Assembly: GCA_030390025.1 (NCBI GenBank)
Contig: CM059432.1
Span: forward strand, 7,502,001-7,566,000
Source: Squalus acanthias
Lineage: Eukaryota
Length of the DNA stretch: 64,000 nt
Direction of reading: 5' to 3'
Part shown: piece by piece, positions 3,379 through 51,170 of the stretch
Layout of the letters: every line of letters begins with the position of its first letter
Numbering within the stretch: position 1 is the first letter of the stretch
Notes under the pieces: generated by a model
What the model saw: the letters and a program-made list of their open reading frames with translations, nothing else
Told to the model about the DNA's origin: nothing
The model's database searches: none
Program-made: the position numbers and the translations under genes

Positions 3379-3825
3379 ACTGGTATGTTTTATCACCGGG
3401 CAGAAGCAGATTCCTCCAAACGTATTGTCACAAAGACAAAAGTGTAGCTGTAGGAAAGGCATAAATCAATGGGGATTATATCTGATGTGAGTGGGGACTT
3501 CCGGATACCTTTAAAGTGGAAAGATCCAGAAGATGGCTGTAGAGAGCTGAGTTTAAGGGAAATAGTGCTTCATCAACATCAGTGCAATTAACCAGCCTGA
3601 GCTCCAAACTGAACACTATTGTTCAGTCCAAGGTGTCCTGGCAGGTTTGTTATACATCGACTGTAAAAGCTGCCTTATGATGAGATCGTAAAGACATTAT
3701 TTTTCTCTTTCTCTTTTGCTTTTGCTCGTCGGATTTTTATTACCTACATTACTACACTTCAAAAGTACTTCACTGGCTGTAAAGCACTTTGGGACGCCCT
3801 GAGGTTGTGAAAGGTGCGATATAAA

Positions 3826-4265
3826 TAGAAAGACAGACTTGCATTTCTATAGCGCCTTTCCCGACCTCAGGACGTCCCAAAGCGCTTTACAGCCAATGAA
3901 GTACTTTTTTGAAGTGCAGTCACTGTTGTCATGTAGGAAACGCGGCAGCCAATTTGCGCACAGCAAGCTCCCACAAACAGCAACGTGATAATGACCAGAA
4001 AATCTGTTTTAGTGATGTTGATTGAGGACATCGGGGAATAACTCCCCTGCCCTTCTTCGATATAGTACCATGGTAAATTTTACATTCACCTGAGAGAGCA
4101 GACAGGGACTCGGTTTAACATCTTATCCAGAAAGACGGCCCCTCTGACAGTGCAGCACTCCCTCAGTACTGCACTGGAGTGTCAGCCTAGATTATTGTGC
4201 TCACATCCCTGGAGTGGGACTTGAACCCACAACCTTCTGACTCAGAGGCGAGAGTGCTTCCCACT
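3826..4265 (-). mobile_element. tRNA-derived Deu-domain SINE (SacSINE1-like); head continues at 6276-6298
   Basis: tRNA-like head with B box GGTTCAAGTCC, central Deu-like domain, L2-like tail; head split by the 4266-6275 insertion. Confidence 0.85.
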
Positions 4266-4385
4266 TTTTTTTTAATATATTATTTATTGAACATTAAAAG
4301 CATTTATAACATGGTGATCATTCCATTGTATCACACAAATCCATTCCGCCGCTCTGCACAGCCATTCCTCCATCACATATTAACA

Positions 4386-4502
4386 TCAAAACCTGAAGTT
4401 TAATTTGTCTCCCATAACATATACTAATCTATTGTACTTTAAAAATTGATCAGTAATCATGGCTCCGAATAAGGGAAGTATGCCTGATAATCCCCCCGTC
4501 AT
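4386..4502 (-). pseudogene. 38-codon ORF2 remnant (MTGGLSGILPLFGAMITDQFLKYNRLVYVMGDKLNFRF)
   Basis: ATG overlaps the ORF1 stop (ATGA, 4502-4499) and reads open to TGA at 4388-4386, just before the 3' UTR. Identity as fused ORF2 termini is inference. Confidence 0.5.
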
Positions 4503-6058
4503 TTAATCTCCGGCCCTTCCCTCCTCCCATGCTCCTTCCCAACATTTCGGACAGCTGTTACTTTCTCCTGCAGCCTCCGGCTCTTTTTCACCTCCTGTTT
4601 GAACCTTCCCTGCAGTTTCAGCCTCTTCCTTACATTAGGTTTGGGCTGAGGAGCTGCCCCTTCTCCCTCCTTCTGCCCCTCACTAACCTTTCCCTTTCCA
4701 CACGATGCCACCCCACCCCCCACTTCCATGTCTCTGTCCCCCTCTGACTCCTCACTCTCGAGCTCTTCTGTAACCTCCCATCCCTGCTCCCCGTCAGATA
4801 CATAATCTCCCTTAGACAGTCTTCCTGCTATCAGGGTTTCTCCAACAGTGCCACTCCCTTCGGCCTCATCTCCACCGCTGATCCTTGTTCCCCGTTTCTT
4901 CTCTCTCTGGGACAATGGCGCATCTGCACCTATCTTGCTCCCTTCTGGCGTCTTTGTCTCCCTGCTCCCATCCTGCTGCCCCTTTAAGGCTCCTGCCTCT
5001 TGCACTCTCTCCTTGTCTTGCCCCCTCCTGCTCCCTGAGATGTCCGACTCCCCGTCTTTCTTTGGAGTACTTACACCTACCCCGCACCCCGCTCCCACCT
5101 CCTCTCCCCCCGCAAACACCAGACTCTTTAGGGAGAGCCGAGCCGTATTATGGCTCGACTCTGCCCTCGACCCGTGCTGCCCTCTGCTGTCTTTGTCCTT
5201 TTCCACCGTACTTAGTGTGTTTTCCACCATCTCCATCCTGTTCTCTGCTCCGCATATTTCTGCCTCTTCCTGCACTCTTTTCTCCTTCCATTCACCAGCT
5301 GTGTCCTCTGTCTGCTCCGCTCCTCCAGCCGCTCCACTCACACCTCCTGCTCCTTCTCCTTCTCCCATCTCCTCGTCACTCAAGGGGCTTCCTTCTGCCT
5401 CACACTCACAGCGGGTGAGGCCTTTGTGACACACCCCACAGCTCTCCGCCTTGCGACTCCGAGCGATGTGTCCAGACTCACCGCAGTTATAACAGTACAA
5501 GTCTGGACAGCTTCTTACAAGATGGTCGTGTCCAAGACAATAATAACAAACCTTCACTTGATTATCATACAGTACCCGGAAGTACTGCACTCCTTCCATT
5601 GTCTCAAATTTCATGCTATACGGCAATGACTTCACCCCCTCTGGGAACCGCACCTTTACATAACGGATTCCATCTGCTACCCGCATTCCTGGATAGTATC
5701 TCCGCTTTATTGCCGAGCAAATTTTAATGCCCCACGACTCCAACTTTTTTATTAGCACATCGTCCTCAATATAAACTGGCAGGTTTAAGAATGAGACCAC
5801 CACCTCTTCAGAATATAGCAGAGATACCTCCAAGAACTTATCTCCAACCTTCAAACTCAGTAAAAGTCTTTCCACCTCCTCTCGGCCACTGACCGTCACC
5901 TTGAACCCAATATTTGGCTTTGGTCGGCAGGCAAAGCAGCTTCCCTCGCCGCAGTCCTCATGTACCGCCCGGATAATATCCCAAGCTCGTATCTCCTTAT
6001 CCTCGCACTGAACCACCACCATGTTTTCTTTTCCAAACCTCCTGGGGTCCCGACCCAA
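4499..6058 (-). CDS. Tx1/L1-type ORF1 gag-like protein with zinc knuckles (ZCCHC3-like N-terminal domain)
   Basis: 519 open codons; RRYYPGMRVADGIRYVKVRFP...SLPYS motif, CYYCLGHDHLVRSC knuckle, second knuckle CYNCGESGHIARSR (last C lost), CGVC...CEC, acidic low-complexity C-terminus. An in-frame TAA separates it from an upstream ATG at 6115. Confidence 0.85.
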   Translation of the reverse strand: MGRDPRRFGKENMVVVQCEDKEIRAWDIIRAVHEDCGEGSCFACRPKPNIGFKVTVSGREEVERLLLSLKVGDKFLEVSLLYSEEVVVSFLNLPVYIEDDVLIKKLESWGIKICSAIKRRYYPGMRVADGIRYVKVRFPEGVKSLPYSMKFETMEGVQYFRVLYDNQVKVCYYCLGHDHLVRSCPDLYCYNCGESGHIARSRKAESCGVCHKGLTRCECEAEGSPLSDEEMGEGEGAGGVSGAAGGAEQTEDTAGEWKEKRVQEEAEICGAENRMEMVENTLSTVEKDKDSRGQHGSRAESSHNTARLSLKSLVFAGGEEVGAGCGVGVSTPKKDGESDISGSRRGQDKERVQEAGALKGQQDGSRETKTPEGSKIGADAPLSQREKKRGTRISGGDEAEGSGTVGETLIAGRLSKGDYVSDGEQGWEVTEELESEESEGDRDMEVGGGVASCGKGKVSEGQKEGEGAAPQPKPNVRKRLKLQGRFKQEVKKSRRLQEKVTAVRNVGKEHGRREGPEIK

Positions 6059-6824
6059 ATCTTTGGGCCTTTATTTCTCCCTTCCCCCAACATTTTCTCC
6101 CCTGATTAAATTCATCCTGGGAACATTGTCCGCTGAGTGGCCTGGCACTGTTTAAGGACCAAAAGCCCTTAAACCTGAAAAAAAAAACCACCGCCAACTT
6201 TTTACAAACTCACTCCAACTCCCTGCAATAATCAAGCACCCAGCAGTTCCTGCTCACTCCTAGCCCCTCCACCTAGAGAGTGCTACCCACTGAGCCAATG
6301 GGAGCTCTGTCTTTCTGCTTTTCTTCTTCCCTACTCTTTCCTTATCTTTCTTTTTTTCCGTTTGTAACACGAATCACTTTCACACAGTCAGCCTCCAGCA
6401 GTCCAGAATTTACAACTTCTGGTGCTGGCCACAGTCTTCTCTCTGATGATGTGATTATTTTTCAGAAATTGCTTTTCCACTGAGATTGTCAAGCTGTGTC
6501 TGAAGATGCCGATTGCGTGCTCTGTTAGCTATACCCATTACAGTCTAGTAGTCTATCTCAGCTGTAACAAGTCGAAAATGTCTGATGTTGAATACAAGCC
6601 TTTTTGAATTCCATTTCATATCTTTTGATGTTTTCAAGATAAATAATGTTGATAAATTAATTGAAATATACTGCTAATGAGAACATAAAAGAAATAGGAG
6701 CAGGAGTAGGCCATATGGCCCATCGGGGAAAGAGCAGGGGAGCGGGACTAACTGGATGGTTCTTTCAAAGAGCTGGCACAGGGCCGAATGGCCTCCTTCT
6801 GTGCTGTATCATTCGATGATTCTA

Positions 6825-7348: not shown

Positions 7349-9513
7349 ATAGAATTACATCGACTTTACAGCACAGAAACAGGCCAGTTGGCCCAACTGG
7401 TCCGTGCCGGTGTTTATGCTCCACACGAGCCTCCTCCCACCCCTCTTCATCTCACCCCATCAGCATATCCTTCTATTCCTTTCTCCCTCAGGTGTTTATC
7501 TCGCTTCCCCTTAAATGCTTCCATGCTGTTTGTCTCAACCACTTCCTGTGGTAGCGAGTTCCACGTTCTCACCACTCTCTGGGTAAAGAAGTTTCTTCTG
7601 AATTCTTAATAGGATTTATTGGTGACCATCTTATATTTATGGCCCCTAGTTTTGGACTCCCCCACAAGTGGAAAGATCTTCTCTACATCCACCCTATCGA
7701 ACCCCATCATAATTTTAAAGACCTCTGTCAGGTCGCCTCTCAGCCTTCTTTTCTAGAGAAGCTAGAGACTATTTCTCAGCGTGTGTCGTTAAGAACATAA
7801 GAAATAGGAGCAGGAGTTGGCCATTCGGCCCCTCGAGCCTGCTCCGCCATTTAATGAGATCATGGCTGATCCGATTTTGGACTCAACTCCATTTCCCGGG
7901 CCGCTCCCCATAACCCTTGACGCCCCTGTTGCTCAACAATCTGCAGACGACACAAAGCTGGGTGGGCGTGTGTGCTGTGAGGAGGATGCAGAGAAACTCC
8001 AGTATGATTTGGACAGGTTGGGTGATTGGGCAGATGCATGGCAGATGCACTATAACGTGGATAAATGCGAGGTTATCCACTTTGGTGGCAAAAACAGGAA
8101 GACAGATTATTATCTGAACGGCAATAGATTGGGAAAAGGGGAAGTGCAACGAGATCTGGGAGTCCTTGTGCACCAGTTGCTGAAGGTAAGCATGCAGGTG
8201 CAGCAGGCGGTTAAGAAGGCAAATGGTATGTTGGCCTTCATAGCGAGAGGATTCGAGTATAGGAGCAAGGATGTCTTGCTGCAGTTGTACAAGGCCTTGG
8301 TGAGACCACACCTTGAGTATTGTGTGCAGTTTTGGTCGCCTTATCTGAGGAAGGATGTTCTTGCCATGGAGGAAGTGCAGCAAAGATTTACCAGACTGAT
8401 ACCTGGGATGGCAGGAATGACGTATGAAGAGAGATTGGGTCGATTAGGCTTATATTCGCTAGAGTTTAGAAGAATGAGAGGGGATCTCATTGAAACTTAT
8501 AAAATTGTAACAGGACTAGACAGACTAGATGCAGGAAGGAGGTTCCCGATGGCGGGGAGTCCAGAACCAGAGGTTACAGTCTAAGGATAAGGGGTAAGCC
8601 ATTTAGGACTGAGATGAGGAGGAATTTCTTCACCCAGAGAGTGGTGAACCTGTGGAATTCTCTACCACACAAGGCAGTTGAGGCCAATTCATTAAATATA
8701 TTCAAGAAGGAGTTGGATATATTTCTTAAGGCTAAGGGGATCAAGGGATATGGGGAGAAAGCAGGGACAGGGTACTGAATTTGGATGATCAGCCATGATC
8801 TCATTAAATGGCGGAGCAGGCTCGAGGGGCCGAATGGCCTACTTCTGCTCCTATCTTCTATGCTTCTGCGCTTCTATGTCAATCTCCAGCTTGAATATAT
8901 TCAATGAATCCGCCTCCACAGCTCTCTGGGGTAGAGAATTCCAAAGATTCACGACCCTCTGAGAGAAGAAATTCCTCCTCATCTCCGTTTTAAATGGGCG
9001 ACCCCTTATTCTGAAACTGTGCCCCCTAGTTCTAGATTCCCCCACGAGGGGAAACATCCTCCCTGCATCTACCTTGTCGTGCCCCCTCAGAATCTTATAT
9101 GTTTCAATAAGATCACCTCTCATTCTTCTAAACTCCAATGAGGATAGGCCCAACCTGCTCAACCTTTCTTCATAAGGCAACCCCTTCAACTCAGGAATCA
9201 ACCTAGTGAACCTTCTCTGAACTGCCTCCAATGCAAGTATATCGTTCCTTAAATAAGGAGACCAAAACTGTACGCAGTACTCTAGGTGTGGTCTCACCAA
9301 TGCCCTGTACAGTTGCAGCAAGACTTCCCTACTTTTATACTCCATCCCCCTTGCAATAAAGGCCAATATTCCATTTGCCTTCCTAATTACTTGCTGTACC
9401 TGCATGCTAACTTTTTGTGTTTCATGTACGAGTACACCCAGATCCCTCTGTACCACAGCATTCTGTAGTCTCTCTCCATTTAAATAATATTTTGCTTTTT
9501 TATTCTTCCTACC
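7349..9513. mobile_element. Cluster of CR1/HER1-type LINE fragments (7349-7760 -, 7790-7940 -, 7941-8878 +, 8879-9513 -)
   Basis: ORFs 7817-8584 (ADDTKLGG...LVRPHLEYCVQFWSPYL) and 8851-9540 are CR1 ORF2 C-termini; 3' UTR stem-loops present. Confidence 0.9.
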
Positions 9514-20317: not shown

Positions 20318-22142
20318 GAAAAAGTTGGAGATGTAACAGATTTTTAAGCAAGTGCAGGGGCAGGGAAAGGGGGGTGGGGAGGAAAGAACAAAAGGGAAGG
20401 TCTGTGATAGGGTGGAAGGCAGGAGAGATTAAATGACAAAAGGGATGATGGTGCAAGGCAAAAGGAGATGGTAATGGGACAAGTTAAGAAACAAAAGATG
20501 ACTCTAGATGAGGTGTAAATGGCACTGGCAGAATCATCAACAGCTGCCATGTGAAAAAAAAGAAAACATAGGGGCCGAGGTTATGATCTGAAATTGTTGA
20601 ACTCTATGCTGAGTCCAGAAGGCTGTAAAGTGCCTAATTGAAAGATGAGGTGCTGTTCCTCAAGCTTACGTTGAGCTTCGTTGGAACAGTGTAAGAGGCC
20701 GAGGACGGAGAGGTCTGAGTGGGAGTGGAGGGGAGAATTAAAGTGACAGGCGACCAGAAGCTCGGGGTCACCCTTACGGAACATTATTTGTGCCGGTCCT
20801 TCTCAGGTCCCCCCCGTCACCTCTTTTTCCGGTACATTGATGACTGTATCGGTGCCGTTTCCTGCTCTCGCCCTGAACTAGAAAATTTCATTCACTTTGC
20901 TTCGAATTTCCACCCTTCCCTCACCTTCACATGGTCCATCTCCGACTCTTCCCTTCCCTTCCTCGACTTCTCTGTCTCCATCGCTGGGGCTAGGCTATTG
21001 ATAAACATTCACTACAAGCCCACTGACACCCACAGCTATCTGGACTACACTTCCTCCCACCCCGCTTCCTGTAAGGACTCTATTCCATTCTCCCAGTTTC
21101 TCCGTCTCCGTCGCATCTGCTCTGACGATGCCACCTTCCATACCAGTGCTTCCGACATGTCTTCCTTTTTCCTCAACCCAGGATTCCCCTCTACCGTGGT
21201 CAACACGGCCCTCGACCACGTCCGTTCCATTTCCCGTACTTCTGCTCTCACCCCTTCCCCTCCCTCCCAGAACCACGATAGGGTTCCCCTTGTCCTCACT
21301 TTTCACCCCACCAGCCTCCACATTCAACGGATCATCCTCCGCCATTCCCACCACCTCCAGCGTGATCCCACCACATCTTCCCCTCCCCTCACCTTTCAGC
21401 ATTCCGAAGGGACTGCTCCCTCCGCGACACCCTGGTCGACTCCTCAATCACCCCCTCCCCTTTCCACGGCACCTTCTCTTGCAAGCGCAGGAGATGCAAC
21501 ACCTGCCCTTTTACCTCCTCCCTTCCCACTTTCCAGGGCCCCAAACACTCCTTCCAGGTGAAACAGCGATTTACTTGTACTTCTTGCAATTTAGTATACT
21601 GTATTCGCTGCTCACGATGCGGTCTCCTCTACATTGGGGAGACCAAACACAGATTGGGTGATCGCTTTGCAGAACACCGCCGTTCAGTCCGTAAGCGTGA
21701 CCCCGAGCTTCCGGTCGCCTGTCACTTTAATTCTCCGCTCCACTCCCACTCTGATCGCTCCGTCCTCAGCCTCTCACACTGTTCCAATGAAGCTCAACGT
21801 AAGCTCGAGGAACAGCACCTCATCTTTCGATGAGGCACTTTACAGCCTTCTGGACTCACCATCGAGTTCAACAATTTCAGACCATAACCTCTGCCCCTAT
21901 TTTTTTTCACCTGGCAGCTGTTGATGATTCTGCCATACCCATTTACACCGCTTCTAGAGTCATCTTTTGTTTCGTAACTTGTCCCATTACCATCTCCTTT
22001 TGCCTCGCACCATCATCCCTTTGTCTTTTAATCTCTCCTGCCTTCCACCCTATCACAGACTTTCCCTTTTGTTCTTTCCTCCCCTCCCCCCTTTCCCTGT
22101 CCCTGCACTTGCTTAAAAATCTGTTACATCTCCAGCTTTTTC

Positions 22143-25515: not shown

Positions 25516-26490
25516 TATTAATGATCTAGACGAGGGAACTAGATGTAACATCTCCAAGTTTGCAGACGACACAAAGCTGGGTGGGCGTGTGTGCTGTGAG
25601 GAGGATGCAGAGAAACTCCAGTATGATTTGGACAGGTTGGGTGATTGGGCAGATGCATGGCAGATGCAGTATAATGTGGATAAATGCGAGGTTATCCACT
25701 TTGGTGGCAAAAACAGGAATACAGATTATTATCTGAACGGCAATAGATTGGGAAAAGGGGAAGTGCAACGAGATCTGGGAGTCCTTGTGCACCAGTCGCT
25801 GAAGGTAAGCATGCAGGTGCAGCAGGCGGTTAAGAGGGCAAATGGTATGTTGGCCTTCATAGCGAGTAGATTCGAGTACAGGAACAAGGATGTCTTGCTG
25901 CAGTTGTACAAGGCCTTGGTGAGACCACACCTTGAGTATTGTGTGCAGTTTTGGTCGCCTTATCTGAGGAAGGATGTTCTTGCCATGGAGGGAGTGCAGC
26001 GAAGATTCACCAGACTGATACCTGGGATGGCAGGAATGACGTATGAAGAGAGATTGGGTCGATTAGGCTTATATTCGCTTGAGTTTAGAAGAATGAGAGG
26101 GGATCTCATTGAAACTTATAAAATTCTAACAGGACTAGACAGACTAGATGCAGGAAGGATGTTCGATGGCGGGGGAGTCCAGAACCAGAGGTTACAGTCT
26201 AAGGATAAGGGGTAAGCCATTTCGGACTGAGATGAGGAGGAATTTCTTCACCCAGAGAGTGGTGAACCTGTGGAATTCTCTACCACAGAAGGCAGTTGAG
26301 GCCAATTCATTAAATATATTCAAGAAGGAGATAGATATATTTCTTAAAGCTAAAGGGATCAAGGGATCTGGGGAGAAAGCAGGGACAGGGTACTGAATTT
26401 GAATGATTAGCCATGATCGCATTGAATGGTGGAGCAGGCTCGAGGGGCCGAATGGCCTACTCCTGCTCCTATCTTCTATGTTTCTATGTA
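25516..26490 (+). mobile_element. CR1/HER1 LINE 3' portion (same subfamily as 7941-8878), preceded by an older CR1 relic at ~25120-25515
   Basis: INDLDEG...ISKFADDTKLGG RT motif, one frameshift near 26165, 3' UTR and tail. Confidence 0.92.
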
Positions 26491-27190: not shown

Positions 27191-27841
27191 TAATCAGCAA
27201 GCAGCTGAGCAGCCTGTCCCTGAGGGCACCATAGAGAGCGAGGCGGGAGAAGAAGAGGAGGAAGAACACACCGCATCACTGCATGTCTCACCCACAGGCA
27301 CCAGCTCAGATACTGCCACTACACGTTCTTTAGAGGCTAGTATAGTAGTGGGATCTGCACAGGGTGAGGCACTGGGGACATGCGGGCTGCAGCAAGGCTG
27401 GAGGAAAGGGTAGCTCGGGGGCCAGCTCCCTGGAGGGCGAGTTTGCACGCGAGTTCTGCTACACAGGACTCAGAGGAGGACCTCGATGGGGAGGCATTTA
27501 GTAGAAGGGTGATGGGCATGCATACGGAGATGATAGGTGCAATGGCAAGGGTGCCCGAGAGCCTCTCGGCACTGGTAAGGAGCGTGGAGGAGTCCCCCTC
27601 CAACATTGCACAGAGCTCTGCGCACACCATGGAGCCCATCCTTGGCAGCCTGCAAAGGATGGTGGACTCCCAGAGAGACCGTGGGGACCCAGACCTCATG
27701 CCGCGTGTGATGGGCGACCTGGCAGCTTCCATTGCAGCACAGGCGGAAGCGACGCAACGTCTTAGTGCTGTAATGGAGTCTGTGCTTGGTGCCATCGATT
27801 CTCAGACTGCTCTCATGCAGTCTCAGCTTGATGCCACGTAA
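27191..27841 (+). pseudogene. Frameshifted exon-like coding relic, probably the C-terminal exon of a Harbinger Myb/SANT-type accessory gene
   Basis: Acceptor TGCTTTCAG at ~27190; ORF 27180-27413 (acidic EEEEEE, TSSDT) shifts into ORF 27380-27841 (DSEEDLDGEAFSRRVMGMHTEMIGAMARVPESL, helical). The Myb/SANT domain itself is absent; assignment is recalled similarity. Confidence 0.45.
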
Positions 27842-28554
27842 GCTCGGACTGCTGCCACCGCATTACCCCGAGGAGCCTGAACTGCATCCGTAGCAGACTG
27901 CTCATTCCTGCACTGGTGGAGCCTTCTCATTCTCCAAATGAACTACTGCCATGGCTTCTCTGCGTGAGTTTATTAACAATTGTGCTATGTTTGTGGGCAG
28001 ATTTAATCCCTTGATTAAAGCCGCCCAGAGTAATTCCTATTACGAGTTTTGCTTGACAAGGGTGACCAAAGTCAAACCTATCCGTCTGGGCTCCATTTTG
28101 ACTGAGTCACAAAGTCGCGAGGTTGTAATTCTAAGTCACCACATCACCCGGTTCACCGTGGTTAAATTTGATACACAGCATGCATGACACGTATTTCAGC
28201 GCCAAAACTGGCCAATTACCCGAAACCGTGTCTGACGGACCCAGACACTCGGCAGACTTCATTGACAGATCATTTATCTGAACTGACAATGTAATAAAGG
28301 AGTTCAGATCTGCAGTGTCCTGCTGTAATAATGATGGACAGGACAGCAGTCACTGTTACAGCTGTTAGGTCAGCTGAAGGTCTGCAAAGCTAAATACAGC
28401 ACAGATGGTGAATAAATGAAAGCAGCGTGAGCTGAATTAATTGCCGAATTGGTACCTGTCTGCTAATTGCTTTGGAGATGGCCATTGCTTGTCGCTTGTA
28501 TCAGCTTCCGTTCTGATGTAAATATTTGTCTGCCTGTTAATCTATTCATTTGTT

Positions 28555-29084
28555 TCTCTCTCTATCTATCGATCTATCTCTCTATCTCTCTCTCTATCTA
28601 TCTCTCTATCTATCTCTCTCTCTCTATCTCTCTATCTCTCTCTCTATCTATCTCTCTATCTATCTATCTCTATCTCTCTCTATCTATCTCTCTATCTATC
28701 TCTCTATCTCTCTCTATCTATCTCTCTATCTATCTATCTATCTTTCTATCTCTCTATCTCTCTCTCTCTCTATCTATCTCTCTATCTCGCTCTCTCTCTA
28801 TCTATCTCTCTATCTATCTCTCTCTCTATCTCTCTCTCTATCTATCTCTCTATCTCTCTCTATCTATCTCTCTATCTATCTCTCTCTATCTATCTCTCTA
28901 TCTATCTCTCTATCTATCTATCTCTATCTATCTCTCTCTCTATCTCTCTCTCTATCTATCTCTCTATCTCTCTATCTATCTATCTATCTATCTCTCTATC
29001 TCTCTCTATTCCTCTATCTATCTCTCTATCTCTCTATCTCTCTATCTATCTCTCTATTTATCTATCTCACTATCTATCTCTCTA

Positions 29085-29120
<36 letters not shown>

Positions 29121-29362
29121 TCTCTCTCTACCTATCTCTCTATCTATCTATCTATCTCTCTTACTCTATATCTCTTTCTCTATCTCTCTATCTATCTCTC
29201 TATCTCTCTATCTCTCTCTCTCTATCTCTCTCTCTCTCTCTCTCTCTATCCCTCTATCTATCTCTCTCTCTCCCTCTCTCTCCCTCTATCTATCTCTCTA
29301 TCTCTCTCTCTCTATCTATCTCTCTCTCTATCTCTCTCTCTATCTATCTATCTCTCTATCTA
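28555..29362. repeat. Compound (TCTA)n/(TC)n microsatellite, ~0.8 kb
   Basis: Almost exclusively TC and TA dinucleotides. Confidence 0.97.
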
Positions 29363-29689
29363 TTGTACCTACTTCAAAGTGCGGCAAGTTGACAGCGCCA
29401 AGTTATACTGCTTCCTCTGTACTGCTCTGTTTTTGGCTAACGTTTCAAGCACCAGTATGATTTATACACACCCAGAGTCAGTGTCCTAGAAATTCTTTGA
29501 TGCCGTGCCCATTAGACAGGCGTAAAACAAGCGCCTAAGCTCCCAACATGGCGGACAGCATGCACGCGTACATTCCGCGCCGGATGGGCACCGCCGGCCG
29601 TATCGGTAATGGCTCCAGTATAGGCGTCCGGGACTCACCCCTGAAACGGGAGTTGGGCCCTTAGTGTTGACGGAAGCGGAAGAATTTTG

Positions 29690-41890: not shown

Positions 41891-43763
41891 ATGTTCCCAT
41901 AACTAGAAATCCAAATTGATCTGATTCAGGCAATTTAGATTACTATGAAAAAATGAAACATTCTCGCTTTAAATGAATGCAGAGTTTTCTGTGGGTCTAA
42001 GGTCCAGTCTTGCCTGTATGGATTATGTTTTATTCACCAGTATTTTTCCTCATTTAACAGGATCGCAAGACGCGTATGGATGAGGAAAGCCATTCAGCCC
42101 ATCGTAATTCGTCCATCCAGCTGAACCTTACAGTTCTCCCCACCCCCCATTGGCTAGATCTAATTGTTTCTTAAATGATTGGCGGGGGTTTTATCTCTAG
42201 CACTCTGCCCAGGAGACCATTCCAAGTGTCAATCATTCTCTACTTGAAGAAGAACAACCTGATATCAGTCCTAAAATTACCTTTTACTGCTTCAAACCTG
42301 TCCCCCCCCCCCCCCCGCAGTTAAAGTTCAAGTAATATTCCAAACTCGCCTTTTTTCATACTCTTGAGCCTGGGCCAGTGCCACAAAGGATAACGTGTCT
42401 GACTATGTGTCAGAAGATTGTAGGTTCGACACCTACCTGGCTCTGACTGTTTTAAAGGTGATTGGCAAAACAATCCGGAGGTGACATGAGGAAAAACTTT
42501 TTTACGCAACGAGTGTTTAGGATTTGGAATGCGCTGCCTGATAGGGCGGTGGAGACAGATTCAATAGTAGCCTTCAAAAGGGAATTGGATAAATACTGGA
42601 AGGAGAAAAAGTTGCAGGGATATGGGGAAAGAAAGAAAGAAAGACTTGCATTCATAGAGCACCTTTCACGACCACCGGACGTCTCAAAGCGTTTTACACC
42701 TAATGAAGTTTTTTTTTGAAGTGTAGTCACTGTTGTAATGTGGGAAACATAGCAGCCAATTTGCGCACAGCAAGGTCCCACAAACAGCAATGTGAAAATG
42801 ACCGGATAATCTGTTGTTTTTGTTATGTTGGTTGAGGGATGGTTGAGGAAAGAGCAGGGGGGAGTGGGACTAACTGGATTGCTCTGCGATGGAGCCGGCG
42901 CAGACTCGATGGGCCGAATGGCCTCCTTCTGTGCTGTAGTACTGTAGTCTCTGGTTCTATCCTGTACGGCTCTATAAGGTCACCTCTCAGAGACCTCTGT
43001 CCCAGGCTGAAAAACTTAAGTCTCTCCAGTCTTTTCCTGAGCACTCAGTTTCCTGACACGAGGGACCAGCCTCATGGGTCGTCCCCAACAGCTGGACGCC
43101 TCCCTTGTTTCTTGATGACCAAGATTGGATGCCGTACTCAAGGACCAGAGCACTGCACAGTTTAATCTTGACTTCCTCTGACTTATATTTCACTGTTTTA
43201 GCTATATAGCTCAACATTGTATTGATTTGATTTATTATTGCTTTGCGTGGAATGGACATGCTGAGTGCTGAGTCTAACCACTTTCCTTGATCTCCTTGAA
43301 CTGCACCCCTTAGTTATTCATAATATCATGGAGTATGCATGTCACACATTTTTCCTTTGTATGTGCCGTATTTCTTTGTGTGCTGCGTGGCATTTACATA
43401 AGAACATGAGAAATAGGAGCAGGAGGAGGCCATTTGGCCCCTCAAGCCTGCTCCACCATTCAATAAGATCATGGCTGATCTTCAACCTCAGCTCCACTTT
43501 CCTGCACTATTCCCATATCCCTTGAGTGCCAAAAAATCTATCGATCTCTGTCTTGAATATACTCAACGACTGAGCATCCACAGCCCTCTGGGGCAGAGAA
43601 TTCCAAAGATTCACAACCCTCTGAGTGAAGAAATTCCTCCTCATCTCGGTCTTAAATGGCCGACCCCTTGTCCTGAGATTATGACCCCTGGTTCTAGACT
43701 CTTCAGGCAGGGGGAAGCAACCTCTCAGCATCGACCCTGTCAAGCTGTCTAAGAATTTTATAT

Positions 43764-44006: not shown

Positions 44007-46045
44007 ATAAGAACATAAGAACATAAGAAATAGGAGCAGGAGTAGGCCAATCGGCCCCTCGAGCCTGCTCCGCCATTCAATAAGATCATGGCTGATCTGA
44101 TCCTAACCGCCAATCTACTATCACAGAACCATCTCCTGCATCTAACAGAATTGCACACACGAAATAAGAGCAGAATCAGGCTACACGGTCCCTGGGCCCG
44201 CTCCACTACCCACAGGGCCATGACCGATCCGAACCTAGACTCATGTCCAAATTCCTGCCCGCTCCCCGTAACCCTTAATGCCCTTTACTTCTAGGAAACT
44301 GTCTATTTCTGTTTTAAATTTATTTAATGATGTAGCTTCTACAGCTTTTTGTGGCAGCATATTCCATGGACCTACCACCCTCTGAGTGAAGTAGTTCCTC
44401 CTCATCTCAGTTTTGAAAGAGCAGCCCCTTATTCTAAGACTATGTCCCCTAGTTCTAGTCTCACCCGTCATCGGGAACATCCTCCCCGCATCCACCCGAT
44501 CCAACCCCTTCACAATCTTATATGTTTCAATAAGATCGCCTCTCATTCTTCTGAACTCCAATGAGTAGAGTCCCAATCTACCCAACCTCTCCTCATATGA
44601 CCACCCCCTCATCCCCGGGATTAACCGAGTGAACCTTTTTTGCACTGCCTCGAGAGCAAGGATGTCTTTCCTTAAGTAAGGACACCAAAACTGTATGCAG
44701 TATTCCAGGTGCGGTCTCACCAATACCTTGTACAACTGAAGCAATACCTCCCTATTTTTATATTCTATCCCCCTAGCAATGAAAGCCAACATTCCATTTG
44801 CCTTCTTAATCACTTGCTGCACCTGCATACTAACCTTTTGAGTTTCGTGCACCAGGACCCCCAGATCCCTTTGGACTTCAGTACTCTCCAGTTTCTTGCC
44901 ATTAAGATAATAAATTGCTCTAGGATTTTTCCTGCCAAAGTGCATCACCTCACACTTTCCAGTGTTGTATTCCATCTGCCAAATCTCTGCCCACTTACTT
45001 AGCCTGTCTATGTCCCCTTGCAGGTTTTTTATGTCCTCCTCACTCACTACTTTCCCTCCCATCTTTGTATCATCTGCAAATTTTGATATGTTACACTTGG
45101 TCCCTTCCTCCAAATCATTAATATAGATTGTAAAGAGTTGGGGACCCAGCACTGACCCCTGTGGAACACCACTAGTTACTGATTGCCAGTCTGAGAATGA
45201 ACCATTTATCCCAACTCTTTGCTTTCTGTTAGATAGCCAATCCTCTATCCATGCCAGAATATTACCCCCAATCCCGTGATTTTTTACCTTAAGCAATAAT
45301 CTTTTGTGTGGCACCTTGTCAAATGCCTTTTGGAAGTCTAAATACACTACGTCCACTGGTTCCCCTTTATCCACTCTATATGTTACTTCCTCAAAGAACT
45401 CCAGCAAATTTGTCAAACATGACTTCCCCTTCGTAAAACCATGCTGACTTTGTCCTATTAAATTATGATTATCCAAATGTCCTGTTACTGTTTCCTTAAT
45501 AATGGACTCCAAAATTTTACCTACCACAGATGTTAGGCTAACCGGTCTATAGTTACCAGCCTTCTGTCTACTGCCCTTTTTAAATAAGGGTGTTACATTA
45601 GCAGTTTTCCAGTCTGCCGGGACCTTAGCGGAATCCAGGGAGTTTTGAAAAATTATTACCAATGCATCTACAATCCCTACCGCCACTTCCTTCAAGACTC
45701 TAGGATGTAAGCCATCAGGTCCAGGTGATTTATCCGCCTTGAGTCCCATTATTTTACCGAGTACCACTTCCTTAGTGATTTTGATCGTGTTTAGCTCCTC
45801 TCCCCCTATAGCCCCCTGTTTGTCCAGTGTTGGGATATTCTTAGTGTCCTCTACTGTAAAGACTGATACAAAATATTCATTCAGTGTTTTTGCCATCTCC
45901 ATATTTCCCACCATTAATTTCCCGGTCTCATCCTCTAAGGGACCAACATTTACTTTAGCCACCCTTTTTCTTTTTATATAACTATAAAAACTCTTACTAT
46001 CTGTTTTATATTTTTTGCTAATTTACTTTCATAATCTATCTTCCC
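44007..46045 (-). mobile_element. Young 5'-truncated CR1/HER1 LINE with duplicated 3' UTR
   Basis: Uninterrupted ORF2 portion, two tandem 3' UTR modules, TTCTTATG-type tail; ATGTT on both flanks. Confidence 0.95.
44241..45962 (-). CDS. CR1 ORF2 reverse transcriptase (partial; endonuclease missing)
   Basis: 573 open codons with KSPGPDG, NYRPVSLTS, QHGF, YLDFQKAFDKV, GVPQGSVLGP, KFADD motifs. Confidence 0.95.
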   Translation of the reverse strand: MAKVNVGPLEDETGKLMVGNMEMAKTLNEYFVSVFTVEDTKNIPTLDKQGAIGGEELNTIKITKEVVLGKIMGLKADKSPGPDGLHPRVLKEVAVGIVDALVIIFQNSLDSAKVPADWKTANVTPLFKKGSRQKAGNYRPVSLTSVVGKILESIIKETVTGHLDNHNLIGQSQHGFTKGKSCLTNLLEFFEEVTYRVDKGEPVDVVYLDFQKAFDKVPHKRLLLKVKNHGIGGNILAWIEDWLSNRKQRVGINGSFSDWQSVTSGVPQGSVLGPQLFTIYINDLEEGTKCNISKFADDTKMGGKVVSEEDIKNLQGDIDRLSKWAEIWQMEYNTGKCEVMHFGRKNPRAIYYLNGKKLESTEVQRDLGVLVHETQKVSMQVQQVIKKANGMLAFIARGIEYKNREVLLQLYKVLVRPHLEYCIQFWCPYLRKDILALEAVQKRFTRLIPGMRGWSYEERLGRLGLYSLEFRRMRGDLIETYKIVKGLDRVDAGRMFPMTGETRTRGHSLRIRGCSFKTEMRRNYFTQRVVGPWNMLPQKAVEATSLNKFKTEIDSFLEVKGIKGYGERAGIWT

Positions 46046-49855: not shown

Positions 49856-49984
49856 ATATGCAAATCCCATCACCAGTTGGAGGACCCCGATGCAAAATTC
49901 AGGTATAAATGAAGCTCCATCCAGTTTCACCAGGTCTTTTACAGCCTAAGCAAAGACCGCTGGAGGCTGCTCAAGAAATGGCCA

Positions 49985-50830
49985 CTTGGCCTCCCATCCT
50001 TCACCTTCCCTCCTTCACCTTCCCTCCTTGGCCTCCCCTCCTTCACCTCCCCTCCTTGGCCTCCCCTCCTTGACCTCCCCTCCTTGGCCTCCGCTCCTTC
50101 ACCTCCCCTCCTTCACCTCCCCTCCTTCACCTCCCCTCCTTGGCCTCCCCTCCTTGGCCTCCCCTCCTTGGCCTCCCCTCCTTGGCCTCCCCTCCTTCAC
50201 CTCCCCTCCTTCACCTCCCCTCCTTCACCTCCCCTCCTTCACCTCCCCTCCTTGGCCTCCCCTCCTTCACCTCCCCTCCTTCGCCTCCCCTCCTTCACCT
50301 CCCCTCCTTTACCTCCCCTCCTTTACTTCCCCTCCTTTACTTCCCCTCCTTTACCTCCCCTCCTTTGCCTCCCCTCCTTTACTTCCCCTCCTTCACCTCC
50401 CCTCCTTTACTTCCCCTCCTTTACTTCCCCTCCTTCACCTCCCCTCCTTGGCCTCCCCTCCTTCACCTCCCCTCCTTGGCCTCCCCTCCTTCACCTCCCC
50501 TCCTTGCCTCCCCTCCTTCACCTCCCCTCCTTTTCCTCCCCTCCTTTTCCTCCCCTCCTTGGCCTCCCCCCCTTGGCCTCCCCTCCTTCACCTCCCCTCC
50601 TTGGCCTCCCCTCCTTCACCTCCCCTCCTTTTCCTCCCCTCCTTTTCCTCCCCTCCTTGGCCTCCCCTCCTTTGCCTCCCCTCCTTTTCCTCCCCTCCTT
50701 TGCCTCCCCTCCTTTTCCTCCCCTCCTTGGCCTCCCCTCCTTGGCCTCCCCTCCTTTGCCTCCCCTCCTTGGCCTCCCCTCCTTTGCCTCCCCTCCTTGG
50801 CCTCCCCTCCTTGGCCTCCCCTCCTTTTCT
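49985..50830. repeat. 14-bp minisatellite CCTCCCCTCCTT(CA/GG/TA/TG/TT), about 60 units
   Basis: Direct reading of tandem units with a variable dinucleotide. Confidence 0.95.
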
Positions 50831-51170
50831 TCCACCCCCCAGGACCTACCTGTGGGCCGGCTCGATGTCAGAGCCAGACGGAATTCGTCAGGGTCCCCAA
50901 CCAGTGAGCTGCAGAGAAGAAAAAATAGACACCGAGCAGGGGGGAAGAACACGTAAGTGGAATCCTCAAGAGCAGGTTTTGAGAAAGCTCCTGAAAGTAG
51001 GGAGGTAGAAGTAAGGTGGAGCGACTTCGAGAGGGAGTGCCAGAGGTCAGGCATAGTGGCTGACAGAGCGGCCACCAATGGTGGAGTGTAGAGGACCTGT
51101 ACAAGGTCCAGCTCAGTATGAGAGGAGGGAACTGTGTATGTGGGAGCTCATGGCGAGAGGAGGTTGCTGA

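What the first reader, a model, noticed from the sequence alone, without database searches (positions are those of the whole stretch)
4266..6275. ORF1-only Tx1/L1-type retroelement with an ATGA-coupled 38-codon mini-ORF2
Seen: a self-contained 2.0 kb unit with a 16-bp TSD, 519 open codons of zinc-knuckle ORF1, AATAAA and poly(A), but no endonuclease or RT. The ORF1 stop overlaps a new ATG (ATGA) that reads 38 codons to a stop just before the 3' UTR. Known: mammalian HAL1 elements are ORF1-only L1 derivatives, and AUGA overlaps support termination-reinitiation. Inference: a non-autonomous family that supplies its own RNA chaperone and borrows ORF2 in trans, with mini-ORF2 being an in-frame fusion of ORF2's first and last residues.
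Basis: partly seen in the sequence, partly recalled or inferred. Interest (0 to 1): 0.72.

Follow-up and report, generated by a model that had tools for sequence, protein, structure and literature searches.

The report
Shark half-LINE inserted in SINE head
This is a dead copy of what appears to be an abundant 2-kb jumping-gene family in a shark-like genome that kept only its RNA-binding protein and lost its copying enzyme, and it sits in the tRNA-like promoter of another repeat, much as its intact relatives sit in tRNA and 5S rRNA genes.

Summary
The anatomy is confirmed: minus-strand unit 6275-4266, target duplication matching 15 of 16 bases, poly(A), no endonuclease or RT. ORF1 is two RRMs plus three zinc knuckles, 36-45% identical to ORF1 of full-length, Mutsu-like (Tx1-type) elements. 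The last 19-23 residues of the 38-codon mini-ORF match their ORF2 C-terminus (0 of 2000 shuffles). Its first residues match only by position (ATGA overlap, second Met at +41), not by sequence. So ORF2 lost about 1,250 codons in frame. Public runs cover the whole unit at very high summed depth, and one near-consensus contig crosses the junction without a gap, which favours a multicopy non-autonomous family. That rests on one contig; the autonomous partner was not found. Corrections: this copy is dead (early nonsense codon, lost knuckle cysteine), and ATGA is inherited, not special. SINE targeting across copies is untested. It works like HAL1 but is not HAL1.

The parts
4266..6275 (-). whole ORF1-only (half-LINE) element, 2,010 nt
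   Evidence: only copy in the window; covered end to end in runs X1, X13, X16
6276..6291 (-). 5' copy of the 16-bp target duplication, part of the SINE tRNA head (about tRNA positions 14-29)
4250..4265 (-). 3' copy of the target duplication (one mismatch at 4259)
6276..6297 (-). 5' piece of the interrupted tRNA-derived SINE head (A-box region)
   Evidence: aligns with 8 intact SINE heads in the window; a sister copy matches the tRNA model weakly, 17.5 bits, E 0.74
3820..4265 (-). remainder of the host SINE (HE1-like; name recalled, not aligned)
   Evidence: 72-89% identical to 17 other places in the window
6116..6275 (-). 5' UTR (inferred)
   Evidence: between the element start and the in-frame ATG at 6115
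4499..6115 (-). ORF1, about 538 codons in the family; in this copy broken by TAA at 6073-6071
   Evidence: other copies differ at 6073 in 8709 of 8964 summed depth in X1, 44 of 44 in X16, 26 of 26 in X13
5564..6034 (-). two tandem RRM-fold domains of ORF1p
   Evidence: AlphaFold2 model, mean pLDDT 93; best Foldseek hits are tandem-RRM proteins, E 1e-5; VIA-align Z 9.6, rmsd 2.0 over 73 residues for the first RRM
5402..5548 (-). three zinc-knuckle-type motifs; the second has lost its last Cys in this copy (5455)
4386..4502 (-). 38-codon mini-ORF2, starting in the ATGA overlap with the ORF1 stop
4452..4502 (-). retained 5' end of ORF2 (leader and second Met at 4460); assigned by position only
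   Evidence: same -1 and +41 ATG offsets as L003 and L010; profile score not significant
4386..4445 (-). retained 3' end of ORF2 (last 19 codons and stop)
   Evidence: profile E 2.7e-4; stop-anchored score reached by 0 of 2000 shuffles and 0 of 2172 window peptides
4446..4459 (-). inferred deletion junction (about 3.7 kb of ORF2 missing)
   Evidence: inference; crossed without a gap by X16 contig 18, 4394-4677
4266..4385 (-). 3' UTR with AATAAA (4288-4283) and A-tail (4273-4266)
   Evidence: no significant RNA fold (z 0.25)

Best explanation
A decayed copy of a multicopy non-autonomous Tx1-type LINE family. An ancestral autonomous element of about 5.7 kb lost nearly all of ORF2 by an in-frame internal deletion, keeping about 17 codons at its start and about 20 at its end (shown by homology for the end, by position for the start). 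The 2-kb RNA kept ORF1, whose protein (two RRMs, three knuckles) would coat its own RNA (inferred). It borrowed endonuclease and RT in trans from an autonomous relative (inferred; partner not seen) and inserted by target-primed reverse transcription, as poly(A) and the duplication show. The partner's endonuclease probably comes from a lineage that cuts Pol III genes, and here it cut the tRNA-derived head of a SINE in the same orientation (shown for this one copy, inferred for the family). The mini-ORF is most likely a scar with no function. This copy has since decayed neutrally.
For: Full-length relatives share this ORF1 (36-45% identity) and carry APE + RT ORF2. The mini-ORF C-terminus matches their ORF2 end in register with the stop. 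ATG offsets -1 and +41 equal those of L003 and L010. In run X1 all 24 element bins have summed depth 13,664-90,472, against 18.3 in the first flank bin and 25-152 for long single contigs. In X16 one contig spans 4394-4677 without a gap; it carries all depth at 4527-4560 (14.8 of 14.8) and has the majority letter at 6 of its 7 differences, so it is not this decayed copy. The 3' end is not enriched over ORF1 in any of the three contig runs (ratios 0.28, 1.18, 0.18), unlike a long, often 5'-truncated LINE. Other copies keep the near-invariant Glu, His and knuckle Cys that this copy lost. Nine of 12 relative loci begin right behind the 5' piece of a 5S rRNA or tRNA gene on the same strand.
Against: The junction is shown crossed by one contig in one run. 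The loose-end table shows 20 of 430 rows and the joint table 15 of 95, nearly all from the SINE, so a fork into ORF2 at the junction could be hidden. 3' depth is only 0.18-0.28 of ORF1 depth in X13 and X1, which may mean many ORF1 copies continue into something else. Summed contig depth is not a copy number, as the tool warns. The mini-ORF N-terminus scores no better than shuffles (705-1422 of 2000 as good). No close shark ORF1 or partner ORF2 was found in the protein searches (best ORF1 hits 55% or less). One of six N-domain differences goes the wrong way (window Gly matches 22 of 25 homologues). No second insertion site was seen.
Confidence: 0.72

Rival explanations
1. The family is mostly autonomous (about 5.7 kb); the ORF1-only form is a minority deletion variant that was copied a few times, or arises repeatedly, without being a family of its own.
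For: Low 3' to ORF1 depth ratio in X1 and X13; junction forks could be hidden in the truncated tables; in-frame fusion has a one-in-three chance without selection.
Against: Autonomous copies sharing this 3' end would raise, not lower, 3' depth. In X16 the only contig over the ORF1 end runs straight through the junction.
Confidence: 0.17
2. A single full-length insertion lost ORF2 after insertion; the junction seen in X16 is the orthologous locus in a related animal.
For: Only one copy in the window; the flank was not recovered in the laid runs beyond 6440, so orthology could not be checked.
Against: The X16 contig has the family-majority letter at 6 of its 7 differences from this copy, as a consensus-like sequence would, and its depth matches the rest of the family in that run.
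Confidence: 0.07
3. The mini-ORF is functional: termination-reinitiation at ATGA makes a short peptide, or its translation is needed in cis, and the frame is under selection.
For: The fusion is in frame; X16 contig 18 has no gap across 4394-4502, and other copies have a second ATG at codon 2 (row 4498). Coupled stop-start translation of ORF2 is described for SART1 (PMC3894237, passages).
Against: The overlap is inherited from autonomous relatives; neither retained piece holds a catalytic motif; no notable RNA structure at the overlap (z -1.5) or the tail; frame conservation across copies was not measured.
Confidence: 0.1

Closest known systems
HAL1 (half-L1) of mammals
   Same: Non-autonomous LINE derivative that encodes only ORF1p (PMC5753468 passage; PMC5786205 passage).
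   Different: HAL1 comes from the L1 clade. This ORF1 has no Transposase_22 hit and carries RRMs with zinc knuckles; relatives are target-specific Tx1-type elements.
HeT-A (Jockey clade) and Ag-Sponge (CR1 clade)
   Same: Listed with HAL1 as ORF1-present bipartite non-autonomous LINEs whose protein likely multimerizes with the partner's (PMC5786205 passage).
   Different: Other clades; that review's list names no Tx1-clade example in the passages seen.
Mutsu (5S rRNA), Dewa (tRNA-Leu spacer), Keno (U2), Kibi/Koshi (microsatellites): target-specific Tx1-clade families
   Same: Relatives L001-L006 and L008 begin inside 5S rRNA genes, as described for Mutsu (PMC3706591 passage); same ORF1 family and ORF1/ORF2 joint.
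   Different: This unit lacks ORF2 and sits in a SINE head, not in a gene. Dewa targets the spacer, whereas L009 and L010 begin inside the tRNA itself. Identity with the named families was not aligned.
Tx1L in Tx1D (Xenopus), Tx1-Mar in Mariner-N4_AMi, Tx1-8_Crp/Tx1-4_AMi in LTR elements, Tx1-9_AMi in Harbinger
   Same: Tx1-clade elements that prefer another mobile element as target (PMC4494074, passages and section 15).
   Different: None of those targets is a SINE head; preference across copies is untested here.

Membership tests
Tx1 clade (non-LTR) | RT-domain phylogeny with Tx1L/Keno/Mutsu | not testable with these tools
   The element has no RT; no named Tx1 reference was fetched. One ORF2 homologue is labelled pol-like protein of Danio rerio (P0176); that this is a Kojima-Fujiwara element is recalled.
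Tx1 clade (non-LTR) | ORF1 with RRM and zinc knuckles, shared with elements that carry APE + RT + zinc-finger ORF2 | tested here: met
Tx1 clade (non-LTR) | poly(A) tail and target duplication | tested here: met
Tx1 clade (non-LTR) | sequence-specific target shared by many copies | tested here: inconclusive
   One site only; flanks of other copies not visible; relatives sit in 5S or tRNA genes.
HAL1 | ORF1-only structure, ORF2 internally deleted | tested here: met
HAL1 | derived from L1-clade ORF1 (Transposase_22 type) | tested here: not met
   Only zf-CCHC found at E up to 1; homologues are knuckle-type ORF1s.
ORF1-present bipartite non-autonomous LINE | 5' and 3' parts of an autonomous LINE joined | tested here: met
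   3' part by profile; 5' part by ORF1 homology and ATG spacing; direct partner not found.
ORF1-present bipartite non-autonomous LINE | many independent copies share the junction | tested here: inconclusive
   High depth on both sides and one consensus-like contig across it; no second flanked copy seen.
ORF1-present bipartite non-autonomous LINE | ORF1 kept under purifying selection after ORF2 loss | tested here: inconclusive
   Other copies keep conserved residues at 3 of 6 N-domain differences, 1 contrary, 2 uninformative; no dN/dS possible.
ORF1-present bipartite non-autonomous LINE | mobilised in trans by an autonomous partner | not testable with these tools
   No genome held; no partner in protein searches.
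HE1 SINE (host) | tRNA-derived head and identity to HE1 | tested here: inconclusive
   Weak tRNA-model match of a sister copy; HE1 listed as the tRNA-derived SINE of sharks and rays (PMC3747384 table); no HE1 sequence aligned.

The most novel reading that the evidence does not exclude
An ORF1-only Tx1-type family, in the order of a thousand copies, rides a partner endonuclease that descends from tRNA-gene-targeting elements and now recognises the tRNA-derived promoter head of the genome's main SINE. The SINE would give it a huge, harmless landing pad, each insertion would split a SINE's A and B boxes, and the short parasite would outnumber its autonomous partner.
Probability: 0.3. Interest if true: 0.7.

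Novelty: new variant of a known kind. Interest (0 to 1): 0.5.

Why it matters
ORF1-only LINEs are described for the L1, Jockey and CR1 clades; a Tx1-type case would be a further independent origin and supports the idea that keeping ORF1 helps a non-autonomous RNA capture a partner's enzyme. The sharp junction marks how little of ORF2 the RNA needs in cis (about 50 nt at the start, 60 nt at the end). If the SINE-head target holds across copies, it shows a route by which a tRNA-gene-specific endonuclease can move onto a SINE and escape the copy limit of gene targets. It does not change a general principle.

Tried and rejected
The N-terminal profile test of the mini-ORF failed (HMM -1.7 bits, 1791 of 2000 shuffles as good; anchored test 705-1422 of 2000). 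A Pfam hit of the mini-ORF to TCR_zetazeta (E 0.1) was rejected as chance. No homologue search with the mini-ORF itself was obtained. ORF1 searches found no close shark protein; viral contigs held no relative; records behind the loci are not held; cluster members could not be listed. No RNA holder was listed on record, so expression is open. Run X22 gave 23 reads, all only partly laid; two reads at the 5' end extend about 17 bases each into the flank by my arithmetic, too little to count for targeting. The joints from about 4250 to 6275 are ordinary SINE heads, not empty orthologous sites. The ORF1 tree is a quick tree only: it groups the window with L009 and L010 at SH-aLRT 91, unstarred, on long branches, so I give it little weight. 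A whole-locus Rfam scan of L009 and L010 found no tRNA; the half-tRNA matches came from stretches I cut at the presumed junction and are weak (E 0.051 and 0.34); the L009 flank pattern had no match in viral contigs. RNA folds of the tail and of the overlap were not significant. PMC13343379 holds no mention of Tx1. Bao and Jurka 2010 is not held, Repbase is not available, and no supplements were read; any of these could already list such a family. Splicing as the cause of the ORF2 loss could not be tested without the partner.

Full report
Observation. The element lies on the minus strand from 6275 to 4266. It is flanked by 6291-6276 and 4265-4250, equal at 15 of 16 bases, and ends in AATAAA (4288) and eight A. 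ORF1 is open for 523 codons between stops, 507 from the first ATG. Its stop overlaps the ATG of a 38-codon ORF, 4502-4386. Eight related ORF2 proteins find nothing inside the unit by tblastn. There is no second copy in the window and no genome was held. The window looks like a shark genome (SINE type, CR1-like and Penelope-like pieces); the species label and the name HE1 are my recall.

The site. Joining the flanks restores the head of a SINE found at 17 other places in the window; the 8 of these that reach the head are uninterrupted across the site. A sister copy matches the tRNA model weakly (17.5 bits, E 0.74), which puts the duplication at about tRNA positions 14-29, inside and behind the A box. 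Element and SINE have the same orientation. The duplicated 16-mer occurs 7 times in the window at up to 2 mismatches, as expected of a SINE motif.

ORF1. The N-terminal 223 residues have 791 relatives at E up to 0.001. An AlphaFold2 model on 124 sequences (pLDDT 93) matches tandem RRM proteins (Foldseek E 1e-5; first RRM Z 9.6, rmsd 2.0 over 73 residues). Three Cys-rich knuckle-type motifs follow, then a long acidic tail. No Transposase_22 domain was found. An RNA-binding, chaperone-like role is inferred from the domains, not tested.

Full-length relatives. A metagenome scan gave 12 loci (three pairs look like the same element), most with ORF1 followed by an ORF2 of about 1,280 residues; the three ORF2s scanned carry endonuclease, RT and zinc-finger domains. 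Seven loci (L001-L006, L008) start behind what I read by eye as the 5' piece of a 5S rRNA gene; Rfam confirms 5S at the 3' ends of L004 and L005. This is the target described for Mutsu (PMC3706591, passage). L009 and L010 start behind tRNA model positions 1-33 and 1-26 (weak, E 0.051 and 0.34 on stretches I cut); the L010 flank is also the start of a complete tRNA-Ser in L013. L007, L011 and L012 show no such flank. The window element's 5' joint, near position 29, falls between those of L010 and L009. A quick tree of 73 ORF1 domains groups the window with these two at SH-aLRT 91, unstarred and on long branches.

The mini-ORF. From the top 45 of 97 ORF2 hits I kept the 40 of at least 1,230 residues and added 4 locus ORF2s. 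A profile of their last 60 residues matches mini-ORF residues 20-38 at its end (E 2.7e-4; 1 of 2000 shuffles and 2 of 907 window peptides as good). A stop-anchored score on 42 sequences (two near-duplicates dropped) is reached by 0 of 2000 shuffles and 0 of 2172, 1946 and 1786 window peptides for the last 19, 21 and 23 residues, and decays beyond that. I chose these lengths after seeing the termini. The N-terminus fails both tests. Position supports it: 3 of 7 relatives have the same ATGA overlap, and two of them (L003, L010) have a second Met 41 bases after the start of the ORF1 stop, exactly where Met15 lies here; L001 and L004 have it at +42 and +39. So ORF2 lost about 1,250 codons in frame, with the break near 4446-4459. 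The overlap is inherited. Coupled stop-start translation is known for SART1 (PMC3894237, passages); nothing here shows the peptide is made.

Family or single accident. Of 24 listed runs I laid four. In X1 every one of the 24 element bins has summed depth 13,664-90,472, against 18.3 in the first flank bin, 0 beyond it, and 25-152 for long single contigs; X13 and X16 also cover all element bins. The tool warns that this is no copy number; taken roughly it suggests the order of a thousand copies. In X16 (RNA is only a guess) one 284-nt contig lies ungapped from 4394 to 4677, holds all depth over 4527-4560, and has the majority letter at 6 of its 7 differences. It is therefore a consensus-like sequence with the same junction. 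The 3' end is not over-represented (ratios to ORF1 0.28, 1.18, 0.18), unlike a long LINE with many truncated copies. Against this: it is one contig; only 20 of 430 loose-end rows, 15 of 95 joint rows and 24 of 27,308 contig rows are shown, mostly SINE, so a fork into ORF2 could be hidden; and the low 3' ratios in X1 and X13 may mean other tails exist. X22 gave only 23 partly laid reads.

This copy is dead. I examined 37 of the 40 displayed differences (3 minor rows dropped, 188 not shown; one row kept, 5895, is a minority letter in X1 and X13). Of 29 in ORF1, 6 are silent against 28% expected, as for neutral decay. Other copies read a sense codon where this copy has TAA at 6073-6071, which opens the frame to the ATG at 6115. 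They also keep a Glu, a His and the last Cys of the second knuckle, found in 23, 25 and 25 of 25 homologues; one difference goes the other way and two are uninformative. Four more mismatches at near-invariant sites were not among the displayed rows.

Mechanism. Shown: LINE-type insertion marks, ORF1 domains, ORF2 loss with a retained C-terminal stub, high abundance of the unit in public runs, one insertion in a SINE tRNA head, Pol III-gene targets in relatives. Inferred: the junction is shared by most copies; ORF1p coats the RNA and helps recruit a partner's ORF2p; the partner's endonuclease prefers the SINE head.

Comparison. ORF1-only LINEs are known: HAL1 (L1), HeT-A (Jockey), Ag-Sponge (CR1) (PMC5786205 and PMC5753468, passages). 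The element works like HAL1 but fails its L1-type ORF1 test. Tx1 families that target other mobile elements are known (PMC4494074, passages and section 15). Ten searches showed no paper on an ORF1-only Tx1 family or a SINE-head target in their listings; I also read passages of PMC8869645, PMC3747384 and PMC13343379. Bao and Jurka 2010, Kojima and Fujiwara 2004 and Repbase were not available, and no supplements were read. Sequence look-ups in this scan's notes found nothing alike; one note on another genome describes a SINE-targeting Tx1-like fragment, and notes on this genome describe a Tx1 family that targets Penelope ends; I tested neither.

Verdict. Real feature; most likely a non-autonomous, ORF1-only derivative of a Mutsu-like Tx1 lineage (0.72). 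New variant of a known kind, interest 0.5; 0.7 if SINE-head targeting holds across copies (probability 0.3).

Noticed in passing
L009:30-63 and L010:28-54: Two related elements begin directly behind the 5' half of a tRNA gene (model positions 1-33 and 1-26), suggesting Tx1-type families that insert inside tRNA genes; not found in the papers searched.
   Followed up: partly
L001-L006, L008 (5' ends); L004:5892-6010, L005:5495-5618: Full-length Mutsu-like elements inside 5S rRNA genes, sitting in metagenome contigs, probably host animal DNA.
   Followed up: partly
L009:2085-2143: The contig end repeats the ORF1/ORF2 joint of L010; chimeric assembly or nested insertion.
   Followed up: no
P0003 (1480 aa): A protein with three stretches matching this ORF1 domain; possibly a gene model over tandem copies.
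   Followed up: no
window 44241-46022 (-): 593-codon open RT frame (RVT_1, E 3e-31), CR1-like, with many shorter copies in the window.
   Followed up: partly
window 20719-21833 (+): Penelope-like remnant; weak GIY-YIG hit (E 2.6e-4) in 21369-21830.
   Followed up: partly
window 42372-42444 (+): tRNA-like sequence (Rfam 35.7 bits; ARAGORN His, anticodon atg), probably a repeat head or pseudogene.
   Followed up: no
window 27337-27841: Overlapping open frames of about 155 codons on both strands with no Pfam hit for the plus-strand one.
   Followed up: partly
window 28467-29489 and 49913-51008: Two simple-repeat arrays that give long spurious ORFs.
   Followed up: no
window 7942-8867 and 25561-26485: 927-bp inverted pair at 96.5% identity, a young LINE fragment pair.
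   Followed up: no
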